Assembly: GCA_937996675.1 (NCBI GenBank)
Contig: CALKUN010000113.1
Span: 1-48,871 of the forward strand
From: an uncultured Candidatus Saccharibacteria bacterium
GTDB taxonomy: Bacteria > Patescibacteriota > Saccharimonadia > CAILAD01 > GCA-016700035
Length of the DNA: 48,871 nt
Direction of reading: 5' to 3'
Within the stretch, counting starts at the first letter, position 1. Each line of letters begins with the position of its first letter. Positions 3,458 to 46,965 of the stretch are shown here, piece by piece. Below the pieces are notes generated by a model. The model searched no databases and was not told where the DNA came from. It saw only the letters and a list, made by a program, of their open reading frames with translations. The translations under genes and the position numbers were made by a program.

Positions 3458-3486
3458 TTGACCAGCTCGAGAAGTCTCGCTATACT
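3458..3486 (+). promoter_or_regulatory. sigma70-type promoter of GC-rich cassette A
   Basis: TTGACC (3458-3463), a 17-nt spacer, then TATACT (3481-3486). It is divergent from the tRNA-fMet promoter. Confidence 0.6.
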
Positions 3487-3505
3487 AGCAACTCCGCTGA
3501 GAGAA

Positions 3506-3862
3506 ATGAGTGCACCTATGTCCACGTCCGTCCTGCTTACGCGCCGCGCAGATCTGCGCGACCGCCAACCGCACCCTGACCACTGCTTGCCGCACCCCGA
3601 CTGCTGCGGTGAGTGCGCTTGGGGCTTCGTCGACCCGTCGTCACCGGGCTACCAGCCAGGTCTTCCGCTTCCGGACGACATCAAGACCGCCTACGAGACC
3701 ATGCCGGGTGGCTACGACAGCCACTGCGGTGAGGTGCAGATCGTCCGGCACTGTGCCACCGGCGTGATCTACGCCATTCGCAACGGGCGACTGTACGTCG
3801 CCGACACCGAGTCCACGGCCTTCATCGGCTACCGCGAGGCCATGGGTCTCGTCGCTGCCTGA
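3506..3862 (+). CDS. GC-rich orphan protein A (Cys/His/Pro-rich N-terminal half), no family recognised
   Basis: ATG at 3506 lies in frame within track ORF 3458..3862, whose annotated TTG start is the -35 box itself. An alternative ATG is at 3518. Third codon positions are G/C-dominated, and a hand count of line 3601 gave about 70% G+C. Shadow ORFs occur on both strands. Contains HPDHCLPHPDCCGEC and HCGEVQIVRHC. Confidence 0.6.
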   Translation: MSAPMSTSVLLTRRADLRDRQPHPDHCLPHPDCCGECAWGFVDPSSPGYQPGLPLPDDIKTAYETMPGGYDSHCGEVQIVRHCATGVIYAIRNGRLYVADTESTAFIGYREAMGLVAA

Positions 3863-23539: not shown

Positions 23540-23935
23540 CTAGGCGAGAGTGAGGTCGGTGAGGCTGTACAGCCACTCGTAGCCTGACATCTCCTGCAGA
23601 ATTCTCAAGACGGCGTGAATGAGTGGCCTGACCTCGGCATCACTCGGTAGAGCTGATTTGTCCGCGAAGTCGTCGCGGTTGAGGATGAGGTGAAAGCCAT
23701 CACCGATGGAGCCGAGGCGCGTACATGAGGGCAGCTCCGGCGCTACCACATAGAGCTTCACGAACGGGTCATCACCGTGGTGGGCCAACAGTTGGAGCCA
23801 GTTGTCTTCATAGAAGGAAAAGGCGAGCGTGAGTTGTCCTCGCCTGTCGACGGATCGGTCGACAACGAGCCACTTGGTGGGCAGGGGCTGACGCGTGGGG
23901 CCAGCCAGATCAGTGCCTGACTCAGTTGTACTCAT
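23540..23935 (-). CDS. GC-rich orphan protein C (131 aa), no family recognised
   Basis: ATG with a GGGAGA SD. It is G/C-rich with G/C-dominated third positions and has its own promoter and terminator. Confidence 0.6.
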   Translation of the reverse strand: MSTTESGTDLAGPTRQPLPTKWLVVDRSVDRRGQLTLAFSFYEDNWLQLLAHHGDDPFVKLYVVAPELPSCTRLGSIGDGFHLILNRDDFADKSALPSDAEVRPLIHAVLRILQEMSGYEWLYSLTDLTLA

Positions 23936-23971
23936 AGAAGGTTCTCCCGGGTCGAGTGGGTTTGTGGTGAT

Positions 23972-24000
23972 AGCCTACATCTGTCGCTCAGTGCTGTCAA
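23972..24000 (-). promoter_or_regulatory. sigma70-type promoter of cassette C
   Basis: On the minus strand TTGACA (24000-23995), a 17-nt spacer, then TAGGCT (23977-23972). Confidence 0.55.
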
Positions 24001-24011
24001 TAAAATTACAA

Positions 24012-24039
24012 GACCCCTACGCTGGCTTGCGTAGGGGTC
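24012..24039 (-). terminator. Hairpin terminator of cassette D
   Basis: GACCCCTAC-GCAAGCCAGC-GTAGGGGTC on the minus strand, followed by TTGTAATTTTATT. Confidence 0.65.
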
Positions 24040-24048
24040 GGGGAAGGA

Positions 24049-24504
24049 CTAGCCGTCGCACATGATTCGCTCGAAGTACTCCGGCGGGTGCGACCTCAGG
24101 TTGAGGGGATTGGTCAGCGGCGCATCGGTTGGTGCCGGCGGTACTTCCCACTCATCCCAGAGGTCGTCCTCGAAGGACGGTCTGGGTGGGGATCGCTGAG
24201 TAAGGGTGGCCTTGGAGGTGTGGACCGACTCGAAGCCGGGCACTTCGCGGATGGCGATGTCGATTTTCCGGGCGGCGGCTTCGCTCAGAAGGGCCGTGCG
24301 GAAGCGGATCACCAGTTCGCCGCGAGGGCTGGCGATGGAGAGGAGGAGGCCGTCGAGCGCGATGCCGCCGATGCGTTCCAGTCGCTCACGAATGATTCCG
24401 GCCTTCCAGAACTTGCCGTCCTGGCAGTCGCTGCTGAAACCGTGCGGGAGGTGTGTGACGCTCAGTTGGTAGGTATCGGTACCGAAGTGGGGTGCAATGG
24501 TCAT
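24049..24504 (-). CDS. GC-rich orphan protein D (151 aa); shares a roughly 50-aa motif block with protein E
   Basis: ATG with a GGAG SD. A hand count of line 24301 gave about 70% G+C. A shadow ORF on the plus strand (24088..24519) is typical of high-GC coding DNA. Confidence 0.6.
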   Translation of the reverse strand: MTIAPHFGTDTYQLSVTHLPHGFSSDCQDGKFWKAGIIRERLERIGGIALDGLLLSIASPRGELVIRFRTALLSEAAARKIDIAIREVPGFESVHTSKATLTQRSPPRPSFEDDLWDEWEVPPAPTDAPLTNPLNLRSHPPEYFERIMCDG

Positions 24505-24539
24505 GGGTGCTCCAGATGAGTAGAGTTACATCGGAGCAA

Positions 24540-24568
24540 ATATTACATCCTTAAGGTGTAAATGTCAA
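24540..24568 (-). promoter_or_regulatory. sigma70-type promoter of cassette D
   Basis: On the minus strand TTGACA (24568-24563), a 17-nt spacer, then TAATAT (24545-24540). Confidence 0.6.
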
Positions 24569-24605
24569 TATGGGTTCTGTTCCGCTAGCAAGGCTGAGAC
24601 GGACA

Positions 24606-24637
24606 AAGCCTCCCTGTCTGGTGGGACAGGGAGGCTT
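24606..24637 (-). terminator. Hairpin downstream of cassette E
   Basis: 13-bp stem AAGCCTCCCTGTC / GACAGGGAGGCTT with a 6-nt loop. The downstream T-run is weak (TTGTCC). Confidence 0.45.
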
Positions 24638-24660
24638 GATGGGTGAATGTGAGGTGTGGC

Positions 24661-25038
24661 TCAGCCGGCGCTGGCACCTCCGAAGCCGAAGGGCACGCTG
24701 GAGTCGATGGCCATCGGCGTGAAGGGCTGCCGCTCAAAGGCGGCGTGGTTGCCGCTGAGCGTCTCCTGCACGCCGACCTTGCAGCCAGCCAGAGCGGCCA
24801 GGGCGCGTTCGATGTAACGCTGCACCACCTCACTGAGGCGGTTGGAGCGGACGCTGACCACCAGAGTGCCGTTCTCGATTCGGCAAGCAGTGACGTCGAG
24901 CTCCGGAATGGTGCGGTTCAGCCGATCCGCAAACTCCGACATGTCGGCGGCTTCGAGGGAGAGGGCGAGTGGTGGCTTGACGCTGACCTGCTTCTCATCT
25001 CTGGCTGCCGACGTGACTGAGGTACTCGTGTTGATCAT
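24661..25038 (-). CDS. GC-rich orphan protein E (125 aa); paralogous block with protein D
   Basis: ATG 25038 is preceded by a GAGAGGA SD. The track start at 25107 is the TTG of the -35 box. G/C-rich, with a plus-strand shadow ORF at 24643..25020. Confidence 0.6.
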   Translation of the reverse strand: MINTSTSVTSAARDEKQVSVKPPLALSLEAADMSEFADRLNRTIPELDVTACRIENGTLVVSVRSNRLSEVVQRYIERALAALAGCKVGVQETLSGNHAAFERQPFTPMAIDSSVPFGFGGASAG

Positions 25039-25077
25039 GAAAATCCTCTCGGGGAAGTACGGGAATGGACAGTGGTC

Positions 25078-25107
25078 ATCGTACGCCGCATTACGTACTT
25101 TTGTCAA
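25078..25107 (-). promoter_or_regulatory. sigma70-type promoter of cassette E
   Basis: On the minus strand TTGACA (25107-25102), an 18-nt spacer, then TACGAT (25083-25078). Confidence 0.5.
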
Positions 25108-25723: not shown

Positions 25724-27016
25724 ATGAAGCAAACGCTCTACGAACGCCTCCTCAGGCGTTTTTTGATCAGCTGTATCCGGCGAGTCATGCGCAAGCAGTC
25801 GCCTCGGGTTATTGTCGTGACTGGTAGTCTCGGCAAGACTTCGACGCGGGCTGCTGTGGCGCGAGCCATCTCTGGTAGCTGGCCAGTCTTCACTCGCAGC
25901 CTCAAGAGCAACTTTGACCGAGGCCCCCTCATGGCGTTCTTCGGCCTGCGCCCCAACAAGAACATTCGCGGACGGCGTTTTTGGGTAGAAGATGTGCCGC
26001 GCATTTTGCGGCTCAGCAAGAAATATCCATATGAGCTGGTAGTGTTGGAAATATCTGAGATATCACTTACCAACCAGCTTGACCTGATAGAGGTGTTGCA
26101 GCCTACGATCTCTGTGCTGACAAGTCTCGCCAAGGTGCACGCATCGGATCACGCCGAGGATGACATCACATTACAGATGCAGAGCCTTATCGAGCATAGT
26201 GAGTCAGTTATCTACAATGCTGACTTTTCATCGCTGAAGGTAGTGGTCGACAATCATCCGCGAGTGAAGAGTTATGGTAGCGCCCGAACAGCCGACTATC
26301 GATTGATAGTGGCTGGGGTTGGCATAGACCAGCTCAGCAATTTCGTAATCCGACATGGCATGCAAGAATGGGACGTGCCGAGCAATCAGATCGGTCAGCA
26401 CTCTGGCGTGGCATACTCCGCGGCATTGGCCGTGACGGATGTGCTGGGCGGTGACATCCCCGATGCAATTGCCGAACTCAAGCTGCTCTACCCGGTGCGA
26501 GGTCGTCTCAATCCATTGCGGGGCATTCGTAAGTCTCTCATCATTGACGACTGCTACAACGCGAACGCTATCTCGATGGGTGCGGCGCTTGATACCCTGG
26601 CTCGGTTCCCGGCACCACGTATCGCTGTCTTGGGCAGTATGAATGAACTCGGCGACCATAGCCCTCGCGAGCACCGGGCTGTCGGTAGGAGAGTAGCGCA
26701 GTCGGCTGATGTGCTCATTGCGATAGGCGAAGATTCTACTCGCTATCTAGCACCTGCTGCGATACAGGCAGGCATGAAGTCCGACCAAGTGCATACATTC
26801 GAGTCGGCCCGAGCAGCCGGTGCCTATCTCAAACGGCATGTAGCCGTAAGCAGTACTGTTATGGGCAAGGGCTCTCAAGACGGCGTCTATACCGAAGAGG
26901 CCTTGCTTCCACTAGTAGTAGGGCGTGACAAGCGGCGACTGATCCGTCAGACGGCTTTCTGGCGAGCCAAAAAAGATCGTTTCTATGCCAATCTACAGAC
27001 TCGTCCAACTGAGTAA
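25724..27016 (+). CDS. Mur ligase family protein, MurF-like, lacking the N-terminal domain
   Basis: P-loop VTGSLGKTST, and DDCYNANAISMGAALDTL and GSMNELG blocks that resemble MurF. It sits next to ATP-grasp ligases rather than in a dcw cluster. Confidence 0.75.
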   Translation: MKQTLYERLLRRFLISCIRRVMRKQSPRVIVVTGSLGKTSTRAAVARAISGSWPVFTRSLKSNFDRGPLMAFFGLRPNKNIRGRRFWVEDVPRILRLSKKYPYELVVLEISEISLTNQLDLIEVLQPTISVLTSLAKVHASDHAEDDITLQMQSLIEHSESVIYNADFSSLKVVVDNHPRVKSYGSARTADYRLIVAGVGIDQLSNFVIRHGMQEWDVPSNQIGQHSGVAYSAALAVTDVLGGDIPDAIAELKLLYPVRGRLNPLRGIRKSLIIDDCYNANAISMGAALDTLARFPAPRIAVLGSMNELGDHSPREHRAVGRRVAQSADVLIAIGEDSTRYLAPAAIQAGMKSDQVHTFESARAAGAYLKRHVAVSSTVMGKGSQDGVYTEEALLPLVVGRDKRRLIRQTAFWRAKKDRFYANLQTRPTE

Positions 27017-27021
27017 AGGTA

Positions 27022-27050
27022 TTTACAAAGATCTTAAAAACAGGTATAAT
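27022..27050 (+). promoter_or_regulatory. sigma70-type promoter directly abutting the first ATP-grasp gene
   Basis: TTTACA (27022-27027), a 17-nt spacer, then TATAAT (27045-27050), then 9 nt to ATG 27060 with no SD. Confidence 0.5.
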
Positions 27051-27059
27051 ATAAGCACT

Positions 27060-27995
27060 ATGACCACCAAGCCACACAATCATGATGTGCTGGTCTTTTT
27101 TAGCTTTAAGTCCCACAAAAAAGGCTACTACAAGACACTCTTCGACCGTCTGACGAGCCAGGCGGCTGATTTTGGTTTGACTCTGCATCAGGGCTCACTC
27201 AAGGACCTCGTTATTTCCTACAAAGATAATAAGATGGAGATCACCGAAACAATGACCGGACGTGATCTATCTTCGTTTGGACTCGTATACTTTGAGCTTT
27301 TTACCAAGGCTCCACAGCAGGCATTGGCCGCCGCCGCTTACTTGGACCGCAAGAGGGTGCCATACTTCTCGCCGCAGGTTCGACAGATCCTTCCAGACTC
27401 TAAGCTGGCCGAAATGGCTCTCTTGGCCGATAATGGGCTCTCGATTCCAGATGGCATCACGTCTTCAAATACTCAGCTCAAGTCGATCTTTCGCGCGGAC
27501 CATCCAATTGAGTACCCATTCATTCTCAAAAGCGTGAAAGCCTTTGGTGGTGCTATGAATTTTTTGGTTCACGACTATGCCGAGCTTGTTGCTCACTTGG
27601 ATGAGAATCCGCAGGAGACGTTTATTATTCAGAGCTTTATTCCAAACCAGTTTGATTACCGCGTTCTGATCTTCGGTGGTGAGGTCAAACTCGTGCTCAA
27701 GCGATCACGCAATAGCGCCGAGACCCATCTCAATAACACATCCAAGGGTGCAGCTGGCGAATTCCTCGACCCATCCGAACTCACCGAAGATCAGATGGCT
27801 GATACACTCAAAGCAGCCAAGCTGCTCGGCCGGGAGGAGTTCTGTGGACTCGACCTGATTATCAATGAGCAGACTGGCGAGCACAGCATTCTGGAGATTA
27901 ATGAATCACCTGGTATCGAGCTTGGTGTCGAGCCTGAGAAGAAAATGGGCATCATGCTGGCCTATATGAAATCACGAATGGAGACACAGTCATGA
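27060..27995 (+). CDS. RimK-type ATP-grasp ligase paralog 1
   Basis: DYRVLIFGGEV, HLNNTSKGAAGE, GLDLI and ILEINESPG blocks matching the RimK/GshB-like ATP-grasp core. The start is chosen at the ATG after the promoter; track ORF 26985 overlaps the upstream gene. Confidence 0.75.
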   Translation: MTTKPHNHDVLVFFSFKSHKKGYYKTLFDRLTSQAADFGLTLHQGSLKDLVISYKDNKMEITETMTGRDLSSFGLVYFELFTKAPQQALAAAAYLDRKRVPYFSPQVRQILPDSKLAEMALLADNGLSIPDGITSSNTQLKSIFRADHPIEYPFILKSVKAFGGAMNFLVHDYAELVAHLDENPQETFIIQSFIPNQFDYRVLIFGGEVKLVLKRSRNSAETHLNNTSKGAAGEFLDPSELTEDQMADTLKAAKLLGREEFCGLDLIINEQTGEHSILEINESPGIELGVEPEKKMGIMLAYMKSRMETQS

Positions 27996-29383
27996 CACGA
28001 CCAGCTATGCAGAAGCCGCGAATTCTCTTCATGTTTGCCCGTGAGGCGGCAGCTGGATCGACTCGTTTTGATGGTTTTGTGAAGCGCCTCAAGAAGTATG
28101 GTGACTTCTCATTTGCGGACGCTGATGTTGCAGCGATCGAAGATATGGTCTTCCTGATCGATAAGCGCAAGGCCAAAGTCATCGACTGGCGTACGAAGAA
28201 AGACCCAGCCGACTACGACTTTGTGTACTTCAAGAACTGGCAGAGTATGCCCGACCAAGCAGCAGCCCTAGCTGTGTATCTAGAAGCCAAGGGTGTGCCA
28301 TACATCGACTACGCGATCACTCAGCGTCGTGGTAATGCTGGTAAGATTATCACTATGCTCAAGCTTTGGGCGGCACGCATTGCTACGCCGCGTACTGTTT
28401 ACGCATCGCCGAAACGCGTCGCGGACGTAGTGAGTTCCGATCTTGTGCAGTATCCGATGGTGATCAAGGCTGCGAATGGTGAGAAAGGTCAGAATAATTA
28501 TCTTGTAAAGACTGCTGCAGCAGCCCGCAAGGTCATTGCTGAACAGCCCGAGATCGACTGGATCATTCAGGACTTCATTCCAAATGATGGCGATTGGCGT
28601 GTACAAGTCTATGGCGGAGAGCCGGCCATGGTGATCAAGCGCAAGGGGAGTGGCGCGTCGCATCTCAATAATACTTCGGCTGGCGGAACGGCTGAGCTCT
28701 TTGAGCACAAAAAGGTACCCACAGCTGTGCTAGACTTGGCAGTCAAGGCTGCCGAGGTAATGGATCTTGCAGTATCGGGAGTAGACGTCATCGTCGACAA
28801 AGAGACCGGACGCAAGGCTATTCTTGAGGTGAACCAAGGTTCGCAAGTAGTCACTGGCGCGCATATCGAAGAAAACATCCAGGGCTTTGTAAAGTTCCTG
28901 AAGCGCACCACTCGCCGCCGCTACCATCGTAAGTCGACCCACGGCCTGCCGAAGAAAGTCATCGGACGCATCGAGCTGGTAGGGCTTCCCGAGTTTGGCC
29001 TCACCGACATTGCTGCAAAGTCTGACACTGGTGCATATAGTGGTGCATTGCACGCTGAGAACATCCGCCTGATCGAAAAAGGAAACAAGAAAGAACTTCA
29101 TTTTCAAATCCCGCACTTCACCGATGGCCGCACCCACACCACTGAACTCGTCGATTGTGTCAGTCATGACTTTGAAGCAGTTTTTGTAAAAAGCTCCAAT
29201 GGACAACGGCAGAACCGCTATAAGATCAGTACACTAGTACGTATACAAGGGCGCGGCTATCAGGCGCAATTCACCCTTACGAACCGTCAAACCCAGAAGG
29301 TGCCAATGCTGCTCGGCCGCAAGCTGTTGCGCGGCAACTTCCTAGTCAATGTAGAACTATCAAGAGGAGAAACACAATCATGA
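27992..29383 (+). CDS. Fusion of RimK-type ATP-grasp ligase (paralog 2) and a RimB/DUF785-like retropepsin-type aspartic peptidase domain
   Basis: The ATP-grasp blocks DWRVQVYGGEP, HLNNTSAGGTAE, GVDVIVD and ILEVNQGS are present. The C-terminal 150 aa or so carry AKSDTGAYSGALHA (DTG active-site-like) and MLLGRKLLRGNFLVN, as in proteins annotated 'putative ATP-dependent zinc protease' (RimB). ATGA overlap with the upstream gene. Confidence 0.7.
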   Translation: MTRPAMQKPRILFMFAREAAAGSTRFDGFVKRLKKYGDFSFADADVAAIEDMVFLIDKRKAKVIDWRTKKDPADYDFVYFKNWQSMPDQAAALAVYLEAKGVPYIDYAITQRRGNAGKIITMLKLWAARIATPRTVYASPKRVADVVSSDLVQYPMVIKAANGEKGQNNYLVKTAAAARKVIAEQPEIDWIIQDFIPNDGDWRVQVYGGEPAMVIKRKGSGASHLNNTSAGGTAELFEHKKVPTAVLDLAVKAAEVMDLAVSGVDVIVDKETGRKAILEVNQGSQVVTGAHIEENIQGFVKFLKRTTRRRYHRKSTHGLPKKVIGRIELVGLPEFGLTDIAAKSDTGAYSGALHAENIRLIEKGNKKELHFQIPHFTDGRTHTTELVDCVSHDFEAVFVKSSNGQRQNRYKISTLVRIQGRGYQAQFTLTNRQTQKVPMLLGRKLLRGNFLVNVELSRGETQS

Positions 29384-30288
29384 AAATCGCCATTCTATCA
29401 GCCGGACGAAAAAACTACTCTACTCAACGTCTCATGGAGGCGGCGGTTGCGCGTGGTCACGAAGCTATTATCGTCAACTACACCAAGGCATATATGGCGA
29501 TTGAGAGCTCTAACCAGACGGTACACGCTGCCGATCAGGAGATCACTGAAGATGTGCAGGCGGTAATTCCTCGTATTGCAGCCAAGCACACCAACTACGG
29601 TACGGCTGTGTTGCGTCAGTTTGAAATGATGCGTGCCTATACAGCGACCAGCTCACTGGCTCTCGTCCGTAGCCGTGACAAGCTCCGTTCGATGCAGCTT
29701 CTCGCTCGTGCTGGCGTGGGTATTCCCAAGACCGTCTTTGCGAGCCAGACAGCTGATGCTAACGACCTCCTTGAGCTCGTCGGCGGCGCACCGGTAGTTG
29801 TGAAACTCCTCGAAAGTACTCATGGATCAGGCGTCGTGTTGGGTGAGACTAAGAAAACTGCCAAGTCTATTATTGAGGCCTTCAACTCGATCAATGCCAA
29901 GATCATCTTGCAGGAGTTTGTGGAAGAAGCTGACGGCGCTGACATTCGTGTAGTCGTGGTAGGCGATCGCATCGTGGCTTCGATGATGCGTAAGGGCGGT
30001 GAAGGTGAATTCCGTAGTAACACTCATCGTGGCGGACAGGTTCTTCCAGTCCAACTCACCAAGAAGGAGGCAAACATCGCGCTCAAGGCGGCTCGTACGC
30101 TCGGTATTAATATTGCTGGTGTAGATATCATCCGATCAAAGCGTGGCCCATTGATCCTCGAAGTAAACAGCTCACCAAGCCTCAAGGGCGTGGAGCGTCT
30201 CACCGGGCAGGACATCGCTGGCGAGATGATCGACTATGTAGTCGCGCGAGCACAGGGCAAGCGAACGCGCGATAAGATAGGGGCATAA
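29380..30288 (+). CDS. rimK: Ribosomal protein S6--L-glutamate ligase-type ATP-grasp enzyme (RimK)
   Basis: Canonical RimK length and blocks: DIRVVVVGDRIVASM, EFRSNTHRGG, GVDIIRS, ILEVNSSPSL. ATGA overlap with the upstream gene. Confidence 0.85.
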   Translation: MKIAILSAGRKNYSTQRLMEAAVARGHEAIIVNYTKAYMAIESSNQTVHAADQEITEDVQAVIPRIAAKHTNYGTAVLRQFEMMRAYTATSSLALVRSRDKLRSMQLLARAGVGIPKTVFASQTADANDLLELVGGAPVVVKLLESTHGSGVVLGETKKTAKSIIEAFNSINAKIILQEFVEEADGADIRVVVVGDRIVASMMRKGGEGEFRSNTHRGGQVLPVQLTKKEANIALKAARTLGINIAGVDIIRSKRGPLILEVNSSPSLKGVERLTGQDIAGEMIDYVVARAQGKRTRDKIGA

Positions 30289-30337
30289 AGCTTTCTTAGC
30301 TGTTGCTGGCTTACGTTCGTGACGGTGTAGATAATAC

Positions 30338-30366
30338 TTGATTATTACTGATAAAAATAGTATAAT
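30338..30366 (+). promoter_or_regulatory. sigma70-type promoter of GC-rich cassette F
   Basis: TTGATT (30338-30343), a 17-nt spacer, then TATAAT (30361-30366). A strong SD AAGGAAGGAG lies at 30397-30406. Confidence 0.6.
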
Positions 30367-30411
30367 ATCGAACTGCACCACTACATCTCTCTACATAAGG
30401 AAGGAGCTCGC

Positions 30412-31701
30412 ATGAGCTCAACCGCAACCCGTTGGAAGGATCAGTCCTTCGCTATCGCATCCTCAAATGGAGCGGCGCCGATCCATGATTGGTTCGAACA
30501 GACACCCGAGGTGCTGGCACGCTTGCGTGCAGCTCTTCTCGCCGGCAGCCCGTTGAATCCTCAGTACCCCGTACTTCAGGCTCAGGATCTCACCGCCAAG
30601 GTCGCAAGTCTGAGCGGATACACGGCATCCGACCAGCCGCTGGAGAAGTTGTACTCGCAGGTCTTCAGCCAGCGCAGGAGGCTTCTGCAGCTGGCCATCG
30701 CCGCGCAGGCGGGTGACATGGCAGCCTTCAGGGTCGCCACAGAGAACATGGCCCTGCAGCCGGACGTCGGATCGTTTCGACGCATTCTCGGCAATCTCGC
30801 CGAGCGTGCTGGAGACCGACCCAACCGGGCCGCCGAAGAGCTGTTCGGCATGTTCCCGCCGGACTACGGCTTCAAGCCGAGCTTGCCGCGAGCAGCCTTC
30901 GTTCAGAAGCTGCGCGATCCAGTGATGGCACTGGTCGAGTCGCTCGGTCTGCCAACCGTCATCCCTCCCGCCGAGGAGGTGTGGGATGCCAAGCGCATCG
31001 CTGCGACCCTGGAAGCCACGGTTCTGCCACCGGCGTTCGATGATGCGCGCGTCAAGATGCGCGTCGTCATCACCGCCAAGAAGCCACGCCCCGTCGCCAC
31101 GCGGAAGGGCACGATGTACATCCCGGAGAGCCTCATGCTCAACGGGGTGGATGCATATGTGCTGATGGTGCGCCTTCGACTCACCGTCGAGCGCTGGTAC
31201 CGAGGTGAGCTCACCGGCTACTACATCATGCTCAACGGCACCGTTGCCGACCTGACTGCCGGCCCGGCCATCCTCACGGTGGTCGAGCAGGTTCTGAGGA
31301 GCAATGCCAACTTCTACGCCGAGGAAGATGCCTACCTGGCATGCTCGTTGGCGGAGGGGATCGGCTCTGAGCCCAAGTCCATCTACGAAGTGTACGCCGC
31401 CATGGTGGCGTACTACCGCTTCGTGGACACGCAGCTGCCCACGGGTGCCGCCATTCCACGCTCGATCGAAGACCGCGCGTGGTCGATGACCTGGAAGACC
31501 TTCGCCGGAACCGACTGCAAGACCCCCGGGGTCTACGCCGGTTTCGGTACCAGGGCTTTGCGAGCCACGGTCAGCCTCTGGGATGCCCTTATGCGCGAGC
31601 CGCGCATCGTCGAGTGCTTCCACCTGGGTCGATTCGATCCTGGCTTCGCGACCGAAGTGAACCTTCTGGTCGAAGCGGGGGCCATTCCGGCTCTGAGGTA
31701 G
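30412..31701 (+). CDS. GC-rich orphan protein F (429 aa), no family confidently recognised
   Basis: Hand counts of lines 30481 and 30781 gave about 65-68% G+C, with G/C-dominated third positions on the plus frame. The 386-aa antisense shadow ORF (30463..31623) is typical of high-GC coding DNA. A strong SD precedes the start and a terminator follows. Confidence 0.7.
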   Translation: MSSTATRWKDQSFAIASSNGAAPIHDWFEQTPEVLARLRAALLAGSPLNPQYPVLQAQDLTAKVASLSGYTASDQPLEKLYSQVFSQRRRLLQLAIAAQAGDMAAFRVATENMALQPDVGSFRRILGNLAERAGDRPNRAAEELFGMFPPDYGFKPSLPRAAFVQKLRDPVMALVESLGLPTVIPPAEEVWDAKRIAATLEATVLPPAFDDARVKMRVVITAKKPRPVATRKGTMYIPESLMLNGVDAYVLMVRLRLTVERWYRGELTGYYIMLNGTVADLTAGPAILTVVEQVLRSNANFYAEEDAYLACSLAEGIGSEPKSIYEVYAAMVAYYRFVDTQLPTGAAIPRSIEDRAWSMTWKTFAGTDCKTPGVYAGFGTRALRATVSLWDALMREPRIVECFHLGRFDPGFATEVNLLVEAGAIPALR

Positions 31702-31716
31702 GAGGATTTAGTACCC

Positions 31717-31759
31717 GCGACTGTTGCTATGACGTACGTCATAGCAACAGTCGCTTTTT
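31717..31759. terminator. Strong hairpin terminator after cassette F, shared with the convergent trpC-like gene
   Basis: Perfect 17-bp stem GCGACTGTTGCTATGAC / GTCATAGCAACAGTCGC with loop GTAC, followed by TTTTT. Confidence 0.85.
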
Positions 31760-32298
31760 CATGCGTGCCGGCTGGCTACAAATTGTTCAAGGTGAGTGCC
31801 GACGAGTATGGCATCGGCAGCTGGATCGACATCGTTCATTGTCATGATGTTGCTGGCTTGGCAAAGCCATCCTCTGAAAGCTTTGCGGGCCTCCGCGAAT
31901 GTTTCTGATTTGAGCCCGCCAGTAGCAAGGTCGCGGCTGTTCCAGACAGCACGACATTGCCCGGGCAGTCTGGTGAGTTCAGCGATGGTGTAGGGTTCAA
32001 TGAGGCACTTATCTAGATGGATAGCAGGTATTCGTCCGACAACGAGCACATGGTCGGCGCCTGCCACGAGAGCTTGTTTGATGTCATCATCGCTCGCATG
32101 GATTCCTTTTGCGAGGATTGGCTTAGTGGTGAGGCTACGGGCTTTCCGCACCAGGTCAAAAGATCCATGCCAGCGTGGATCGGTATGGATTGAGATAATA
32201 TCACCGACCTCGTTCGCCATTGCGAAGAGTTCGCTCCAGCTCTTGTCGGACTGCCATCCAAAAGGGGAGTGAGTTTTTACCTCGGCGATGACCTGCAT
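31759..32298 (-). CDS. Short indole-3-glycerol-phosphate synthase (TrpC)-like TIM-barrel protein
   Basis: IAEVKTHSP.G, ISIHTD...GSF, PILAKG, GADHVLV, NSRDL and LVG blocks occur in IGPS order. It is only 179 aa, and no other trp genes are in the window. Confidence 0.55.
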   Translation of the reverse strand: MQVIAEVKTHSPFGWQSDKSWSELFAMANEVGDIISIHTDPRWHGSFDLVRKARSLTTKPILAKGIHASDDDIKQALVAGADHVLVVGRIPAIHLDKCLIEPYTIAELTRLPGQCRAVWNSRDLATGGLKSETFAEARKAFRGWLCQASNIMTMNDVDPAADAILVGTHLEQFVASRHA

Positions 32299-32300
32299 AG

Positions 32301-32639
32301 CTAGCCTTTGAGTATCTGGGCTTGGCGAAGCGTAACGATCTCTCTGATGACAGTCTCTGGAAGCGGCTTGTTTTCGGTAAACTGCAGTGTGCCATGGCCA
32401 GAGAGGGTGAAGCCTTCGAGCTTGTCGGCGATCTCGTCCACGTTACCAAAGATGCTCATGTGGTTCTTAAAGGCTGCAAACATGAAGAGCTGTTTACCAT
32501 TTAGCTTGAAGGTTGGCATATCGTAGCTGATAGTTTCTTCAGCCTCGGGCACGGCTTCGTGCACGATTTTGCGAATGCGTTCCATTTCAGTACGCTGTGA
32601 TGGTGTGACTTTGGCGAGGTATTCATCGATGGTTTTCAT
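32301..32639 (-). CDS. DUF1801 (YdhG-like) domain protein
   Basis: MKTIDEYL...QR..MERIRKIV...PEAEETISYDMPTFK pattern, typical of DUF1801. Confidence 0.7.
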   Translation of the reverse strand: MKTIDEYLAKVTPSQRTEMERIRKIVHEAVPEAEETISYDMPTFKLNGKQLFMFAAFKNHMSIFGNVDEIADKLEGFTLSGHGTLQFTENKPLPETVIREIVTLRQAQILKG

Positions 32640-46497: not shown

Positions 46498-46526
46498 TTG
46501 ACAAATAGGCAATAACATGCTATTAT
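46498..46526 (+). promoter_or_regulatory. sigma70-type promoter of GC-rich cassette H
   Basis: TTGACA (46498-46503), a 17-nt spacer, then TATTAT (46521-46526). Confidence 0.6.
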
Positions 46527-46562
46527 GTCTGGTATCCGTTTACCGACGAAAGGCTTCCCCCT

Positions 46563-46694
46563 ATGTCACACACGGAAGACAAGAAAGCACCGCAGCACAA
46601 GTCGTCCTGGCCGAAAGGCCTTGTCGTCCTGGGCAGCAACTCTTGGGGTCGCGAAGCCCCTCTCAACACGCATTCCCCGTACCAGCCGAAGTAA
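46563..46694 (+). CDS. Possible 43-aa upstream ORF within the cassette H leader
   Basis: The unlisted ORF MSHTEDKKAPQHKSSWPKGLVVLGSNSWGREAPLNTHSPYQPK has fairly high G/C at third positions but only a weak GAAAGG 13 nt upstream. Confidence 0.3.
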   Translation: MSHTEDKKAPQHKSSWPKGLVVLGSNSWGREAPLNTHSPYQPK

Positions 46695-46734
46695 TTCCCT
46701 TCATTCCCCACATTTCTACACGGAGGTAGAATAC

Positions 46735-46965
46735 ATGCGCAAGCGCCAGACCAAGCCCACCGCCCACCCCACTTCTCTCGACACGTTGAGCTACCGGCTC
46801 CTCTGTTTCGGTCGTCGGGCCAACCAGGTGGCGTCCATGCCGTTCCATCCGAAGCGGGTCGACCTGACCCAATTCGCGGAGCCCGCGATCCATCGCTCGC
46901 CGTCCTTCGGTGACGACCCGCACGTCGTGGTCAGGCTCAGTCAGCGTGACCTCGTCTTGGCCTAG
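46735..46965 (+). CDS. GC-rich orphan protein H (76 aa), no family recognised
   Basis: GGAGG SD 8 nt upstream of the ATG. Third codon positions are almost all G/C. The in-frame upstream part of track ORF 46525 lacks that bias. Confidence 0.55.
   Translation: MRKRQTKPTAHPTSLDTLSYRLLCFGRRANQVASMPFHPKRVDLTQFAEPAIHRSPSFGDDPHVVVRLSQRDLVLA

What the first reader, a model, noticed from the sequence alone, without database searches (positions are those of the whole stretch)
30338..31759. 429-aa G+C-rich orphan gene placed directly after the ATP-grasp cluster
Seen: this is the largest of the G+C-rich ORFs, with hand counts of about 65-68% in two lines. It has a textbook promoter (TTGATT-17-TATAAT), a very strong SD (AAGGAAGGAG), and a perfect 17-bp stem terminator followed by TTTTT. 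A 386-aa antisense shadow ORF is present.

The protein has only two His and two Cys (a single CK pair, no clustered Cys motif). It has no TM or signal sequence and no motif I can assign.

Established: in many proteobacteria, RimK-like ATP-grasp genes are neighbours of DUF1704 proteins of about 400 aa. These are the QEGLA-motif proteins, the family of the MATCAP tyrosine carboxypeptidase.

Inference, which is weak: the size and position invite the idea of a degenerate or analogous tail-processing partner. However, I see no HExxxH or QEGLA motif, only LAEGIG, so I do not assert homology. Alternatively it is simply another foreign cassette that landed here.
Basis: partly seen in the sequence, partly recalled or inferred. 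Interest (0 to 1): 0.7.

Follow-up and report, generated by a model that had tools for sequence, protein, structure and literature searches.

The report
Dead, hypervariable MATCAP-like gene beside rimK
The "orphan" gene is a real, fast-evolving relative of the MATCAP/DUF1704 tail-trimming carboxypeptidases that has lost every metal-binding and catalytic residue, sits right after the tail-adding ligase RimK in a Saccharibacteria genome, and exists as very different swappable versions in otherwise near-identical strains.

Summary
The ORF (30412-31701, +, 429 aa), its G+C excess (63% overall, GC3 78% against about 56% in neighbours), promoter-like site, SD and 17-bp terminator are all present.

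It is not an orphan. It has no direct Pfam, NCBIfam, PHROG or PDB hit. An exhaustive HMMER scan and profile-profile comparison (99.9-100%) nevertheless place it in the MATCAP/DUF1704 "QEGLA" family (PF08014).

It is the positional orthologue of an HExxH-bearing gene that follows rimK in other Candidatus Saccharibacteria. In this clade, HExxH has become R-L-R-L-T and the EEG metal ligand has become G-P-A. The gene is still under purifying selection (dN/dS 0.14-0.25), and the former active-site helices are its best-conserved part. It is therefore a pseudoenzyme, not a relic.

Unexpectedly, contigs with 95-100% identical flanks carry alleles only 46% or 77% identical in protein, plus intragenic chimeras.

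The mechanism is inferred: a non-catalytic binder or regulator of the C-terminal tails built by the adjacent ATP-grasp ligases. The cause of the G+C excess and of the allele diversity remains unexplained.

The parts
30338..30366 (+). Sigma-70-like promoter TTGATT-17-TATAAT of the ORF's own transcription unit.
   Evidence: Found by the scan (10 of 12 positions). It is not significant on its own. The core ACTTGAT(T/A)ATTACTG(A/T)TAAAA..AGTATAATATCGA(A/C)CTGCACC is conserved in allele classes A, B and C, while the adjacent spacer and 5'UTR diverge.
30398..30425 (+). SD (AAGGAAGGAG, 30398-30407), ATG (30412) and a 6-bp hairpin GAGCUC-NNAU-GAGCUC (30404-30419). The hairpin pairs the 3' end of the SD with the G of the AUG and codons 2-3.
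   Evidence: One search gives about -10 kcal/mol and predicts the same stem in alleles A, B/A and C. The stem is invariant in all four allele classes while the loop varies.
30412..31701 (+). CDS of 429 aa: a catalytically dead member of the MATCAP/DUF1704 (PF08014) lineage. The N-terminal helical region (about residues 1-185) is the more variable part. The peptidase-like core (about residues 190-429) is the more conserved part.
31171..31185 (+). Former HExxH site, now R254-L255-R256-L257-T258. RLRL is invariant in all four allele classes.
   Evidence: MAFFT and hhalign against the Saccharibacteria orthologues agree. hhalign against the canonical set shifts the register by one residue, but there is no His or Glu in 252-259 in either register.
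31261..31269 (+). Former EEG (third metal ligand) site, now G284-P285-A286. The equivalent is G-L-G in allele C.
   Evidence: The motif definition comes from PMC10499314.
31717..31759 (+). Intrinsic terminator: a perfect 38-nt palindrome followed by TTTTT, lying between convergent genes.
   Evidence: It is 100% identical in alleles A, B/A and C. One stem position shows a change on both sides (G-C to A-U) in L001.
29380..30288 (+). rimK (ATP-grasp S6-glutamate ligase type), immediately upstream of the ORF.
   Evidence: PF08443 at 210 bits and PF18030 at 111 bits. The protein is 100% identical across strains that carry different ORF alleles.
27992..29383 (+). Fusion of an ATP-grasp domain with a RimB-like (PF05618) protease domain.
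26985..27995 (+). A second RimK-like ATP-grasp gene.
25724..27016 (+). Mur-ligase-like gene at the head of the cluster.
30372..31686 (+). Approximate segment replaced in allele C strains (5'UTR plus almost the whole CDS). Nucleotide identity here is 50-72%, inside flanks that are 95-100% identical.
30044..31440 (+). Approximate tract of B-type sequence in the chimeric strain L036. Its right breakpoint lies inside the CDS.

Best explanation
ORF 30412-31701 encodes a pseudoenzyme. It is a descendant of the MATCAP/DUF1704 ('QEGLA') gluzincin-type metallocarboxypeptidase that, in other Candidatus Saccharibacteria, is encoded directly after rimK.

Shown:
- It is homologous to that family and is the positional orthologue of the rimK-linked gene.
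- In one monophyletic clade (four allele classes known) the HExxH motif and the EEG metal ligand have all been replaced by R-L-R-L-T and G-P-A.
- The protein keeps the predicted fold and the other family motifs.
- It is under purifying selection, and its former active-site helices are its most conserved part.
- It carries promoter-like, SD and terminator sequences of its own.
- It exists in the population as deeply divergent alleles (46-77% protein identity) that replace one another by homologous recombination inside near-identical genomes.

Inferred: the protein no longer cleaves. It acts instead as a non-catalytic binder (reader, cap or regulator) of the acidic C-terminal tails made and trimmed by the adjacent ATP-grasp ligases and RimB-like protease. 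This is the behaviour of engineered catalytic-site mutants of MATCAP, which stay bound to their substrate.

My confidence in the identity (dead MATCAP-family orthologue) is about 0.9. My confidence in the tail-binder mechanism is about 0.35.
For: Gene reality:
- The exact protein occurs on contigs from 46 blocks of the collection, always in the order rimK, gene, IGPS-like gene.
- dN/dS is 0.22, 0.22 and 0.14 between allele classes.
- The antisense ORF is not conserved.

Family:
- The exhaustive phmmer scan gives 145 representatives.
- Of ten scanned against Pfam, eight pass the PF08014 gathering score of 27 bits; one reaches 26.6 bits and one 13 bits.
- The syntenic genes in L006, L009, L011 and L012 score 30-48 bits against PF08014.
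- hhalign gives 99.94% and 100% probability.
- The canonical bacterial profile hits MATCAP structure 7Z5G at E 5e-8, across the HEIGTH and EEG motifs.

Position and descent:
- A homologue lies directly after rimK in four Saccharibacteria genomes.
- In the NJ tree the dead clade has 100% bootstrap. It is nested (86%) inside the Saccharibacteria HExxH group, which itself has 100%.

Loss of the active site:
- Searches give the alignments.
- Among 146 family proteins, only the four of this clade and two short fragments lack HExx(x)H.
- The defining residues H280, E281, H285 and E316 of the EEG motif, and the inactivity of the E281A and E316A mutants, are from PMC10499314.

Retained structure and constraint:
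- The AF2 model has pLDDT 88 and pTM 0.88, with the two helices 245-267 and 280-295.
- Its best solved-structure matches are M32 metallocarboxypeptidases. The same is true of the model of an active orthologue.
- Residues 241-300 are the most conserved stretch within the dead clade, at 55-75% against 47% overall.

Binder analogy: inactive MATCAP mutants stay on and bundle microtubules (PMC10499314), and E281Q localises to microtubules (PMC13269789).

Context: the cluster has three RimK-like ATP-grasp genes, a RimB-like domain and a Mur-ligase-like gene. RimK, RimB and RpsF tail biology is described in PMC7343187 and PMC11957791.
Against: - No direct hit of the ORF itself to any curated family, even at E <= 10. 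The profile that included the ORF did not reach the PDB at E <= 0.01.
- Foldseek support is weak: E 0.01-0.3 and TM 0.25-0.30. MATCAP structures are not among the top 50 hits for either model.
- The binding function is pure analogy. No substrate, partner or expression data exist.
- Recent polymorphism within allele A is not clearly constrained: 9 nonsynonymous against 5 synonymous changes in L043, and 5 against 1 in L005. All of these changes lie in residues 5-228.
- Active orthologues also evolve fast. At 91% RimK identity they are only 54% identical. Rapid divergence is therefore not a consequence of the dead state.
- Two canonical family members examined on short contigs had no ATP-grasp neighbour.
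- The G+C excess is not explained by this account.
Confidence: 0.55

Rival explanations
1. Conflict or recognition module. The dead peptidase is kept as a set of deeply divergent alleles by diversifying or negative frequency-dependent selection, for example as a decoy, sensor or immunity-like binder for a phage or host factor. Its link to RimK is secondary.
For: - Allele C (46% protein identity) sits in flanks that are 95-100% identical, in three independent assemblies.
- Allele B tracts and at least three chimeric proteins exist.
- In L042 the 7.4 kb upstream of the gene, which includes the other G+C-rich ORFs, is 95-100% identical, and the gene itself is the only stretch below 75%. In L046 it is by far the most divergent segment (51-72% against 81% or more elsewhere).
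- Two independent replacements have breakpoints that hug the CDS.
Against: - No match to any PADLOC defence family.
- No signal peptide or TM segment.
- dN/dS between alleles is well below 1.
- Active orthologues diverge almost as fast, so fast evolution followed by neutral introgression could give the same picture.
- Only about 21 contigs were sampled.
Confidence: 0.2
2. Neofunctionalised enzyme. The scaffold has acquired a different, metal-independent or differently liganded catalytic activity that uses the newly fixed residues.
For: - The replaced positions are themselves invariant (RLRL, A-G-x) across alleles only 46% identical. The surrounding helices are the most conserved part of the protein.
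- Several invariant acidic and basic residues remain, including E292, D306, E353, D354, R355, D368 and K370.
Against: - No recognisable alternative catalytic motif.
- Neither of the two His residues is invariant in the clade, and no Cys cluster is present.
- There is no precedent in this family.
Confidence: 0.12
3. Decaying relic. After the active site was lost, the gene is drifting towards pseudogenisation and has no function.
For: - All catalytic residues are lost.
- Recent polymorphism shows a high ratio of nonsynonymous to synonymous changes.
- One contig (L025) carries a frameshifted copy.
Against: - Full-length ORFs are kept in four allele classes that have diverged to 46% identity, with dN/dS 0.14-0.25.
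- The promoter core, SD, start-codon hairpin and terminator are conserved.
- The intact version of the L025 allele exists in L042 and L046.
Confidence: 0.08
4. Foreign G+C-rich cassette acquired from outside Saccharibacteria (for example from an actinobacterial host or a phage) and unrelated to the ATP-grasp cluster.
For: - GC3 is 0.78 against about 0.56 for the neighbours, and the shift is sharp at the gene borders.
- Five other GC3-rich ORFs in the window have no homologue in the related loci.
Against: - The nearest relatives are the rimK-linked Saccharibacteria genes, and the clade is nested among them.
- The gene occupies the same position in several genomes.
- The orthologues in other genomes are also G+C-enriched relative to their own rimK, by 2 to 10 points of GC3.
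- There are no flanking direct repeats.
- No PHROG hit.
Confidence: 0.05

Closest known systems
MATCAP1/TMCP1 (KIAA0895L) and MATCAP2/TMCP2 (KIAA0895), the eukaryotic tubulin tyrosine/glutamate carboxypeptidases (Pfam PF08014)
   Same: Same protein family by transitive and profile-profile homology. They remove residues from acidic C-terminal tails that ATP-grasp ligases (TTL/TTLL) extend, which parallels the gene's position beside RimK. Engineered catalytic-site mutants behave as stable substrate binders (PMC10499314, PMC13269789).
   Different: The window protein lacks HExxxH and the EEG glutamate. It is bacterial (CPR) and has a helical N-terminal region of about 185 residues. It does not reach the Pfam model directly. 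Foldseek did not list it against 7Z5G.
[quoted passage not shown]
   Same: Homologous core. Relatives of the window protein give sub-threshold TIGR02421 hits of 42-85 bits. In Photobacterium a QEGLA gene lies next to, and is co-induced with, a GshB-type ATP-grasp gene (PMC10308900).
   Different: None of the relatives meets the equivalog cut-off of 338 bits. The window protein has no hit at all and lacks the eponymous QEGLA/EEG glutamate and the HExxxH motif.
rimK-linked HExxH orthologues in other Candidatus Saccharibacteria (L006, L009, L011, L012; P0005-P0008)
   Same: Same length (423-439 aa) and same position directly after rimK. Protein identity is 28-34%, and hhalign gives 100% probability. 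They are also fast-evolving and mildly G+C-enriched.
   Different: They keep H-E-x-x-H and E-E-G as invariant residues. The window clade has replaced all of them.
M32 (Taq/BsuCP-type) metallocarboxypeptidases
   Same: They are the best solved-structure matches for both the window model and the active orthologue model. They are gluzincin carboxypeptidases.
   Different: The similarity is weak (E 4e-3 to 0.3, TM 0.25-0.36). There is no sequence similarity, and the window protein has no HExxH.
RimB, the retropepsin-like protease partner of RimK in Pseudomonas (PF05618)
   Same: It is the known tail-trimming and regulatory partner encoded beside rimK (PMC7343187, PMC11957791). A RimB-like domain is present in this cluster at 27992-29383.
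   Different: The fold and the catalytic mechanism are unrelated. The ORF studied here is not RimB.

Membership tests
MATCAP / DUF1704 (Pfam PF08014; NCBIfam TIGR02421) | Direct significant match of the protein to the curated family profile | tested here: not met
   There are 0 families at E <= 10 in Pfam and NCBIfam.
MATCAP / DUF1704 (Pfam PF08014; NCBIfam TIGR02421) | Common descent shown by intermediate sequences or profile-profile comparison | tested here: met
   phmmer relatives pass the PF08014 threshold. hhalign gives 99.94% over 406 columns and 100% over 425 columns. The canonical profile hits 7Z5G at E 5e-8.
MATCAP / DUF1704 (Pfam PF08014; NCBIfam TIGR02421) | HExxxH (or HExxH) motif supplying two metal-binding His and the catalytic Glu | tested here: not met
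   The aligned positions are R254-L255-R256-L257-T258. The protein has only H25 and H404. The motif definition is from PMC10499314.
MATCAP / DUF1704 (Pfam PF08014; NCBIfam TIGR02421) | Third metal ligand, the Glu of the EEG/QEGLA motif | tested here: not met
   The aligned positions are G284-P285-A286.
MATCAP / DUF1704 (Pfam PF08014; NCBIfam TIGR02421) | Gluzincin-type peptidase fold | tested here: inconclusive
   The AF2 model is confident (pLDDT 88). Its best PDB matches are M32, M3 and ACE gluzincins, but only at E 0.01-0.3, and MATCAP is not listed. The active orthologue model behaves the same way.
MATCAP / DUF1704 (Pfam PF08014; NCBIfam TIGR02421) | Metal-dependent carboxypeptidase activity on C-terminal tails | not testable with these tools
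   This needs biochemistry. The sequence predicts that the activity is absent.
RimK-associated tail-modification cluster (RimK with a trimming or regulatory partner) | Encoded adjacent to, and on the same strand as, a RimK-type ATP-grasp ligase, conserved across genomes | tested here: met
   The gene starts 123 nt after the rimK stop codon in the window. The arrangement is the same in all contigs that carry it and in the orthologue-bearing genomes L006, L009, L011 and L012.
RimK-associated tail-modification cluster (RimK with a trimming or regulatory partner) | Co-transcription or functional coupling with rimK | not testable with these tools
   The gene has its own promoter-like site and terminator. 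No expression data are available.
Mobile gene cassette / genomic island | Flanking direct repeats, an integrase, or a tRNA or att site at the borders | tested here: not met
   There are no direct repeats of 14 nt or more in 29300-32400. The neighbours are housekeeping-type genes. The replacement tracts have homologous-recombination-like mosaic borders.
M32 metallocarboxypeptidase | HExxH zinc site and significant structural or sequence similarity | tested here: not met
   There is no HExxH. Foldseek gives TM of 0.30 or less and E of 0.01 or more. There is no sequence hit.

The most novel reading that the evidence does not exclude
Bacteria may have a 'reader' for C-terminal tail modifications. 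On this reading the gene is a natural substrate-trap version of a MATCAP-type carboxypeptidase. It recognises, but does not cut, the tails written by RimK-family ligases. Its specificity surface is kept polymorphic and is swapped between strains of an episymbiotic Saccharibacterium, because what it recognises (its own, its host's or a phage's tails) is itself under conflict.
Probability: 0.15. Interest if true: 0.8.

Novelty: new variant of a known kind. Interest (0 to 1): 0.6.

Why it matters
MATCAP became known in 2022-2023 as the missing tubulin detyrosinase. Its bacterial relatives (DUF1704/QEGLA) have no established function.

This locus shows a lineage in which a MATCAP-type gene is hard-wired next to RimK, the bacterial counterpart of the tubulin tail ligases. 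That supports an ancient pairing of a ligase with a carboxypeptidase for C-terminal tails.

It also provides a natural experiment: an orthologue with every catalytic residue removed that is still conserved. This is the signature of a pseudoenzyme with a binding or regulatory role, and it gives a concrete handle for finding the substrate of these systems in uncultivated CPR bacteria.

The deep allelic diversity in near-identical genomes is a second, independent oddity. It points either to selection for diversity or to unusually frequent introgression at one gene.

Tried and rejected
Direct family searches
- Pfam, NCBIfam, PHROGs and PDB sequence searches with the ORF gave nothing.
- The word-indexed homologue search found only three clusters.

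Searches for more loci
- Scanning genome contigs with the ORF's own peptides found nothing.
- Both metagenome-contig scans (the protein alignment, then the promoter DNA pattern) found nothing. Extra alleles therefore had to come from exact-protein look-ups.

Structure
- The PDB profile search with the mixed alignment A3 found nothing at E <= 0.01. Only the canonical alignment A4 reached MATCAP.
- Foldseek did not return MATCAP structures for either model, so the fold evidence stays weak.

Rejected readings
- Antisense 386-aa ORF as the real gene: it is not conserved.
- Known RNA element in the UTRs: Rfam gave no match.
- Defence-system membership: PADLOC gave no match.
- Insertion-type cassette: no flanking direct repeats.
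- Second, active copy nearby: none in the 48.9-kb window. The rest of the genome was not seen.
- G+C richness as a mark of hypervariability in general: the other G+C-rich ORFs are 96-99% identical in the strain that carries allele C.
- High expression as the cause of the high GC3: DnaK has GC3 of only 0.62.

Not possible
- The Landskron 2022 paper is not held in the library.
Full report
**1. Observation**

The ORF is at 30412-31701 on the + strand and encodes 429 aa. The 386-aa antisense ORF lies at 30463-31623.

G+C is 63.3%, with GC1/2/3 of .637/.481/.779. Every neighbouring gene has 48-55% G+C and GC3 of .53-.61.

TTGATT-17-TATAAT lies at 30338-30366 and AAGGAAGGAG at 30398-30407. A perfect 38-nt palindrome followed by TTTTT lies at 31717-31759 (17 pairs, -34.3 kcal/mol, z = -5.6).

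The promoter match alone is no better than chance in this region: 4 sites against 5.9 +/- 2.3 in shuffles. Its two hexamers are, however, conserved in diverged relatives whose surrounding spacer has changed.

The protein has two His (H25, H404) and three Cys (not two).

The antisense ORF is a by-product of the high G+C. Its stop-free run drops from 412 codons here to 212, 203 and 84 codons in homologues.

**2. It is a real gene**

The identical protein is recorded in 46 blocks of the public assembly collection, from JGI, ENA, NCBI and Logan. In every contig read it has the same context: rimK, then the gene, then a convergent IGPS-like gene.

Between allele classes dN/dS is 0.22, 0.22 and 0.14.

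Many Logan contigs stop about 45 nt after the stop codon, inside the palindromic terminator. That is an assembly effect, not biology.

**3. Family**

The ORF gives no hit in Pfam, NCBIfam, PHROGs or PDB sequences. The word-indexed search found only three clusters.

The exhaustive phmmer scan of 1.84 billion representatives found 145 proteins at E <= 1e-3. Most are 420-500 aa long and align best over the C-terminal half.

Ten of these were scanned against Pfam. Eight pass the PF08014 (MATCAP, formerly DUF1704) gathering score of 27 bits. One reaches 26.6 bits and one 13 bits. Several give sub-threshold TIGR02421 'QEGLA' hits.

Profile-profile comparison of the ORF's clade gave two results:
- Against 25 canonical members: 99.94% probability (E 3e-37, 406 columns).
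- Against eight Saccharibacteria proteins: 100% (E 1e-73, 425 columns).

The canonical bacterial profile reaches the human MATCAP structures 7Z5G, 7Z5H and 7Z6S (E 5e-8). The alignment runs through HEIGTH and EEG.

**4. Host and synteny**

RimK relatives identify the organism as a Candidatus Saccharibacteria (CPR) bacterium.

In four Saccharibacteria genomes (L006, L009, L011, L012) a 433-439-aa homologue lies directly after rimK. It is 28-34% identical to the ORF and exceeds the PF08014 threshold.

The cluster in the window contains these genes in order:
- a small membrane protein
- a Mur-ligase-like gene
- an ATP-grasp gene
- an ATP-grasp/RimB-like fusion
- rimK
- the ORF

Other Saccharibacteria have variant clusters. 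Those without a gene after rimK (L008, L010, L016) carry a 618-aa ORF at the cluster head. It gives a weak family hit that includes an HEITH motif.

**5. The active site is gone**

PMC10499314 defines the family's site as HExxxH (H280, E281, H285 in TMCP1) plus the Glu of an EEG motif (E316). The E281A and E316A mutants are inactive.

The rimK-linked Saccharibacteria proteins have invariant H-E-x-x-H and E-E-G.

In the window protein the aligned residues are R254-L255-R256-L257-T258 and G284-P285-A286. MAFFT and hhalign against the orthologues agree on this. hhalign against the canonical set shifts the register by one, but there is still no His or Glu in residues 252-259.

Among 146 family proteins, only the four of this clade and two short fragments lack HExx(x)H.

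The dead clade is monophyletic (100% bootstrap). It is nested (86%) within the Saccharibacteria HExxH group, which has 100% support. This indicates a single loss within the lineage, not an import from outside.

**6. Not a relic**

- The replaced residues are themselves fixed. RLRL and A-G-x are invariant across alleles only 46% identical.
- Residues 241-300, the two former active-site helices, are the most conserved stretch in the clade.
- Other family motifs persist: YLA..LA, AW, GTDxKxP and G(K/R)(Y/F)DP.
- AlphaFold2 gives a confident model (pLDDT 88, pTM 0.88) with helices 245-267 and 280-295.
- The model's best solved-structure matches are M32 metallocarboxypeptidases, followed by M3 and ACE-type gluzincins, all weak (E 0.01-0.3).
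- A control model of the active orthologue P0006 (pLDDT 94.5) returns the same class and also does not list MATCAP. The fold evidence is therefore consistent but not decisive.

**7. Unexpected allelic diversity**

L036 (seen in four samples) was compared with the window gene by gene:
- The four downstream genes are 99-100% identical at the nucleotide level.
- The terminator region is 100% identical.
- RimK is 100% identical in protein.
- The ORF is only 82.6% identical in nucleotides (dN 0.12, dS 0.48).

A 100-nt sliding comparison shows a B-type tract from about 30044 to 31440. Its right breakpoint lies inside the CDS. Three cluster members are N-terminal B / C-terminal A chimeras.

L046 (two samples), L042 (a 29-kb contig) and L025 carry a third allele, C. 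It is 431 aa long, 46% identical to the window protein, has GC3 of .76, and is also dead (MARLRLS, AGLG). Its flanks are 95-100% identical over 7.4 kb upstream and 100% identical over 2.4 kb downstream.

The replaced segment is essentially the 5'UTR plus the CDS. The promoter core and the last 14 nt of the CDS plus the terminator are shared.

A fourth allele, D (P0003), is known only from a 1.3-kb contig.

In L042 the other G+C-rich ORFs upstream are 96-99% identical, so the diversity is specific to this gene.

Two findings temper the interpretation:
- Active orthologues also diverge quickly relative to RimK. At 91% RimK identity they are only 54% identical.
- Recent polymorphism within allele A is conservative, confined to residues 5-228, and not clearly constrained.

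**8. Mechanism**

Shown: the protein is a conserved, catalytically disabled orthologue of a carboxypeptidase-type gene, tied to a cluster of tail-adding ATP-grasp ligases and a RimB-like protease.

Established elsewhere:
- MATCAP-type enzymes trim acidic C-terminal tails (PMC10499314).
- Inactive MATCAP mutants stay bound to their substrate (PMC10499314, PMC13269789).

Inferred: the protein binds such tails, or the ligase complex, without cleaving. It would act as a reader, protector or regulator.

The 6-bp hairpin over the SD and AUG is conserved in all alleles and suggests that translation is restrained.

The allele diversity suggests either selection for diversity or frequent introgression of a fast-evolving gene.

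The G+C excess remains unexplained. The orthologues share it mildly (GC3 +2 to +10 points over their own rimK). GC-biased gene conversion at a recombination-prone gene is one possibility, but it was not tested.

**9. Verdict**

The gene is a degenerate MATCAP/DUF1704 partner of the RimK cluster.

It is a new variant of a known kind: a natural pseudoenzyme with cassette-like allelic turnover. It is not a new kind of system, and not an orphan.

Noticed in passing
window 3458-3862(+), 23540-23935(-), 24049-24504(-), 24661-25107(-), 46525-46965(+): Five further ORFs have GC3 of 0.71-0.80 in a genome whose genes average about 0.55. The two scanned (24049-24504 and 24661-25107) have no Pfam hit, and none has a homologue in the related Saccharibacteria loci. 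In the strain that carries allele C, the three at 23540-25107 are 96-99% identical; the other two lie outside that contig. They are therefore G+C-rich but not hypervariable.
   Followed up: partly
L008 5791-7647, L010 12-1865 (and L016 5794-7647): Saccharibacteria clusters with no gene after rimK carry a 617-618-aa ORF at the cluster head, in place of the Mur-ligase-like gene (split into two ORFs in L016). It has no Pfam hit. It gives a weak match (E 3e-6) to the MATCAP-family profile, and the match includes an HEITH motif. It may be a second, very distant peptidase of the same kind.
   Followed up: partly
A5 alignment (P0005-P0008; L006, L009, L011, L012): The rimK-linked Saccharibacteria orthologues have HExxH (for example HERLH), with one residue fewer between the histidines than the HExxxH that defines MATCAP and the canonical bacterial members.
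   Followed up: no
window 30404-30419: An inverted repeat GAGCTC-NNAT-GAGCTC forms a 6-bp hairpin of about -10 kcal/mol. It pairs the end of the SD with the start codon and codons 2-3. The stem is invariant in all four allele classes although the 5'UTR and CDS are otherwise diverged. This may also explain the invariant Met-Ser-Ser N-terminus.
   Followed up: partly
window 27992-29383: A single ORF fuses a RimK-like ATP-grasp domain to a RimB-like (PF05618) protease domain. In L006 and L012 the RimB-like domain is a separate gene of 143-173 aa.
   Followed up: no
window 29458-30157 compared with L046: The 3' two-thirds of rimK is only 81-94% identical in nucleotides between two strains, yet the RimK proteins are 100% identical. 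This is an imported tract in which every difference is synonymous. Between the window and L001, the rimK C-terminal part has dS of 1.4 and dN of 0.003.
   Followed up: partly
window 27756-28556 compared with L045; window 27144-29343 compared with L036: Further mosaic patches (75-96% nucleotide identity) lie inside the ATP-grasp genes of otherwise identical strains. Recombination with diverged lineages therefore affects the whole cluster, though far less deeply than the ORF.
   Followed up: no
L025 near codon 305-309: One Logan contig of allele C has a frameshift. The protein database therefore holds a 429-aa product (P0004) with an unrelated C-terminus. Intact copies of the allele exist in L042 and L046.
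   Followed up: yes
L013 10912-12087, L014 10903-12087: In a more distant Saccharibacteria group, the slot after rimK holds a 391-394-aa ORF. It has no significant Pfam hit and no similarity to the MATCAP-like gene.
   Followed up: no
window 31759-32298 (-): The convergent downstream gene (179 aa) matches only positions 49-140 of the 254-position IGPS profile. It may be a truncated or divergent TIM-barrel fragment. It is conserved and 100% identical across strains.
   Followed up: no
L039 beyond the position equivalent to window 33280: One JGI contig that is otherwise 100% identical to the window diverges completely downstream of the CDP-alcohol phosphatidyltransferase gene. This is a strain-level rearrangement or insertion next to comEC.
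   Followed up: no
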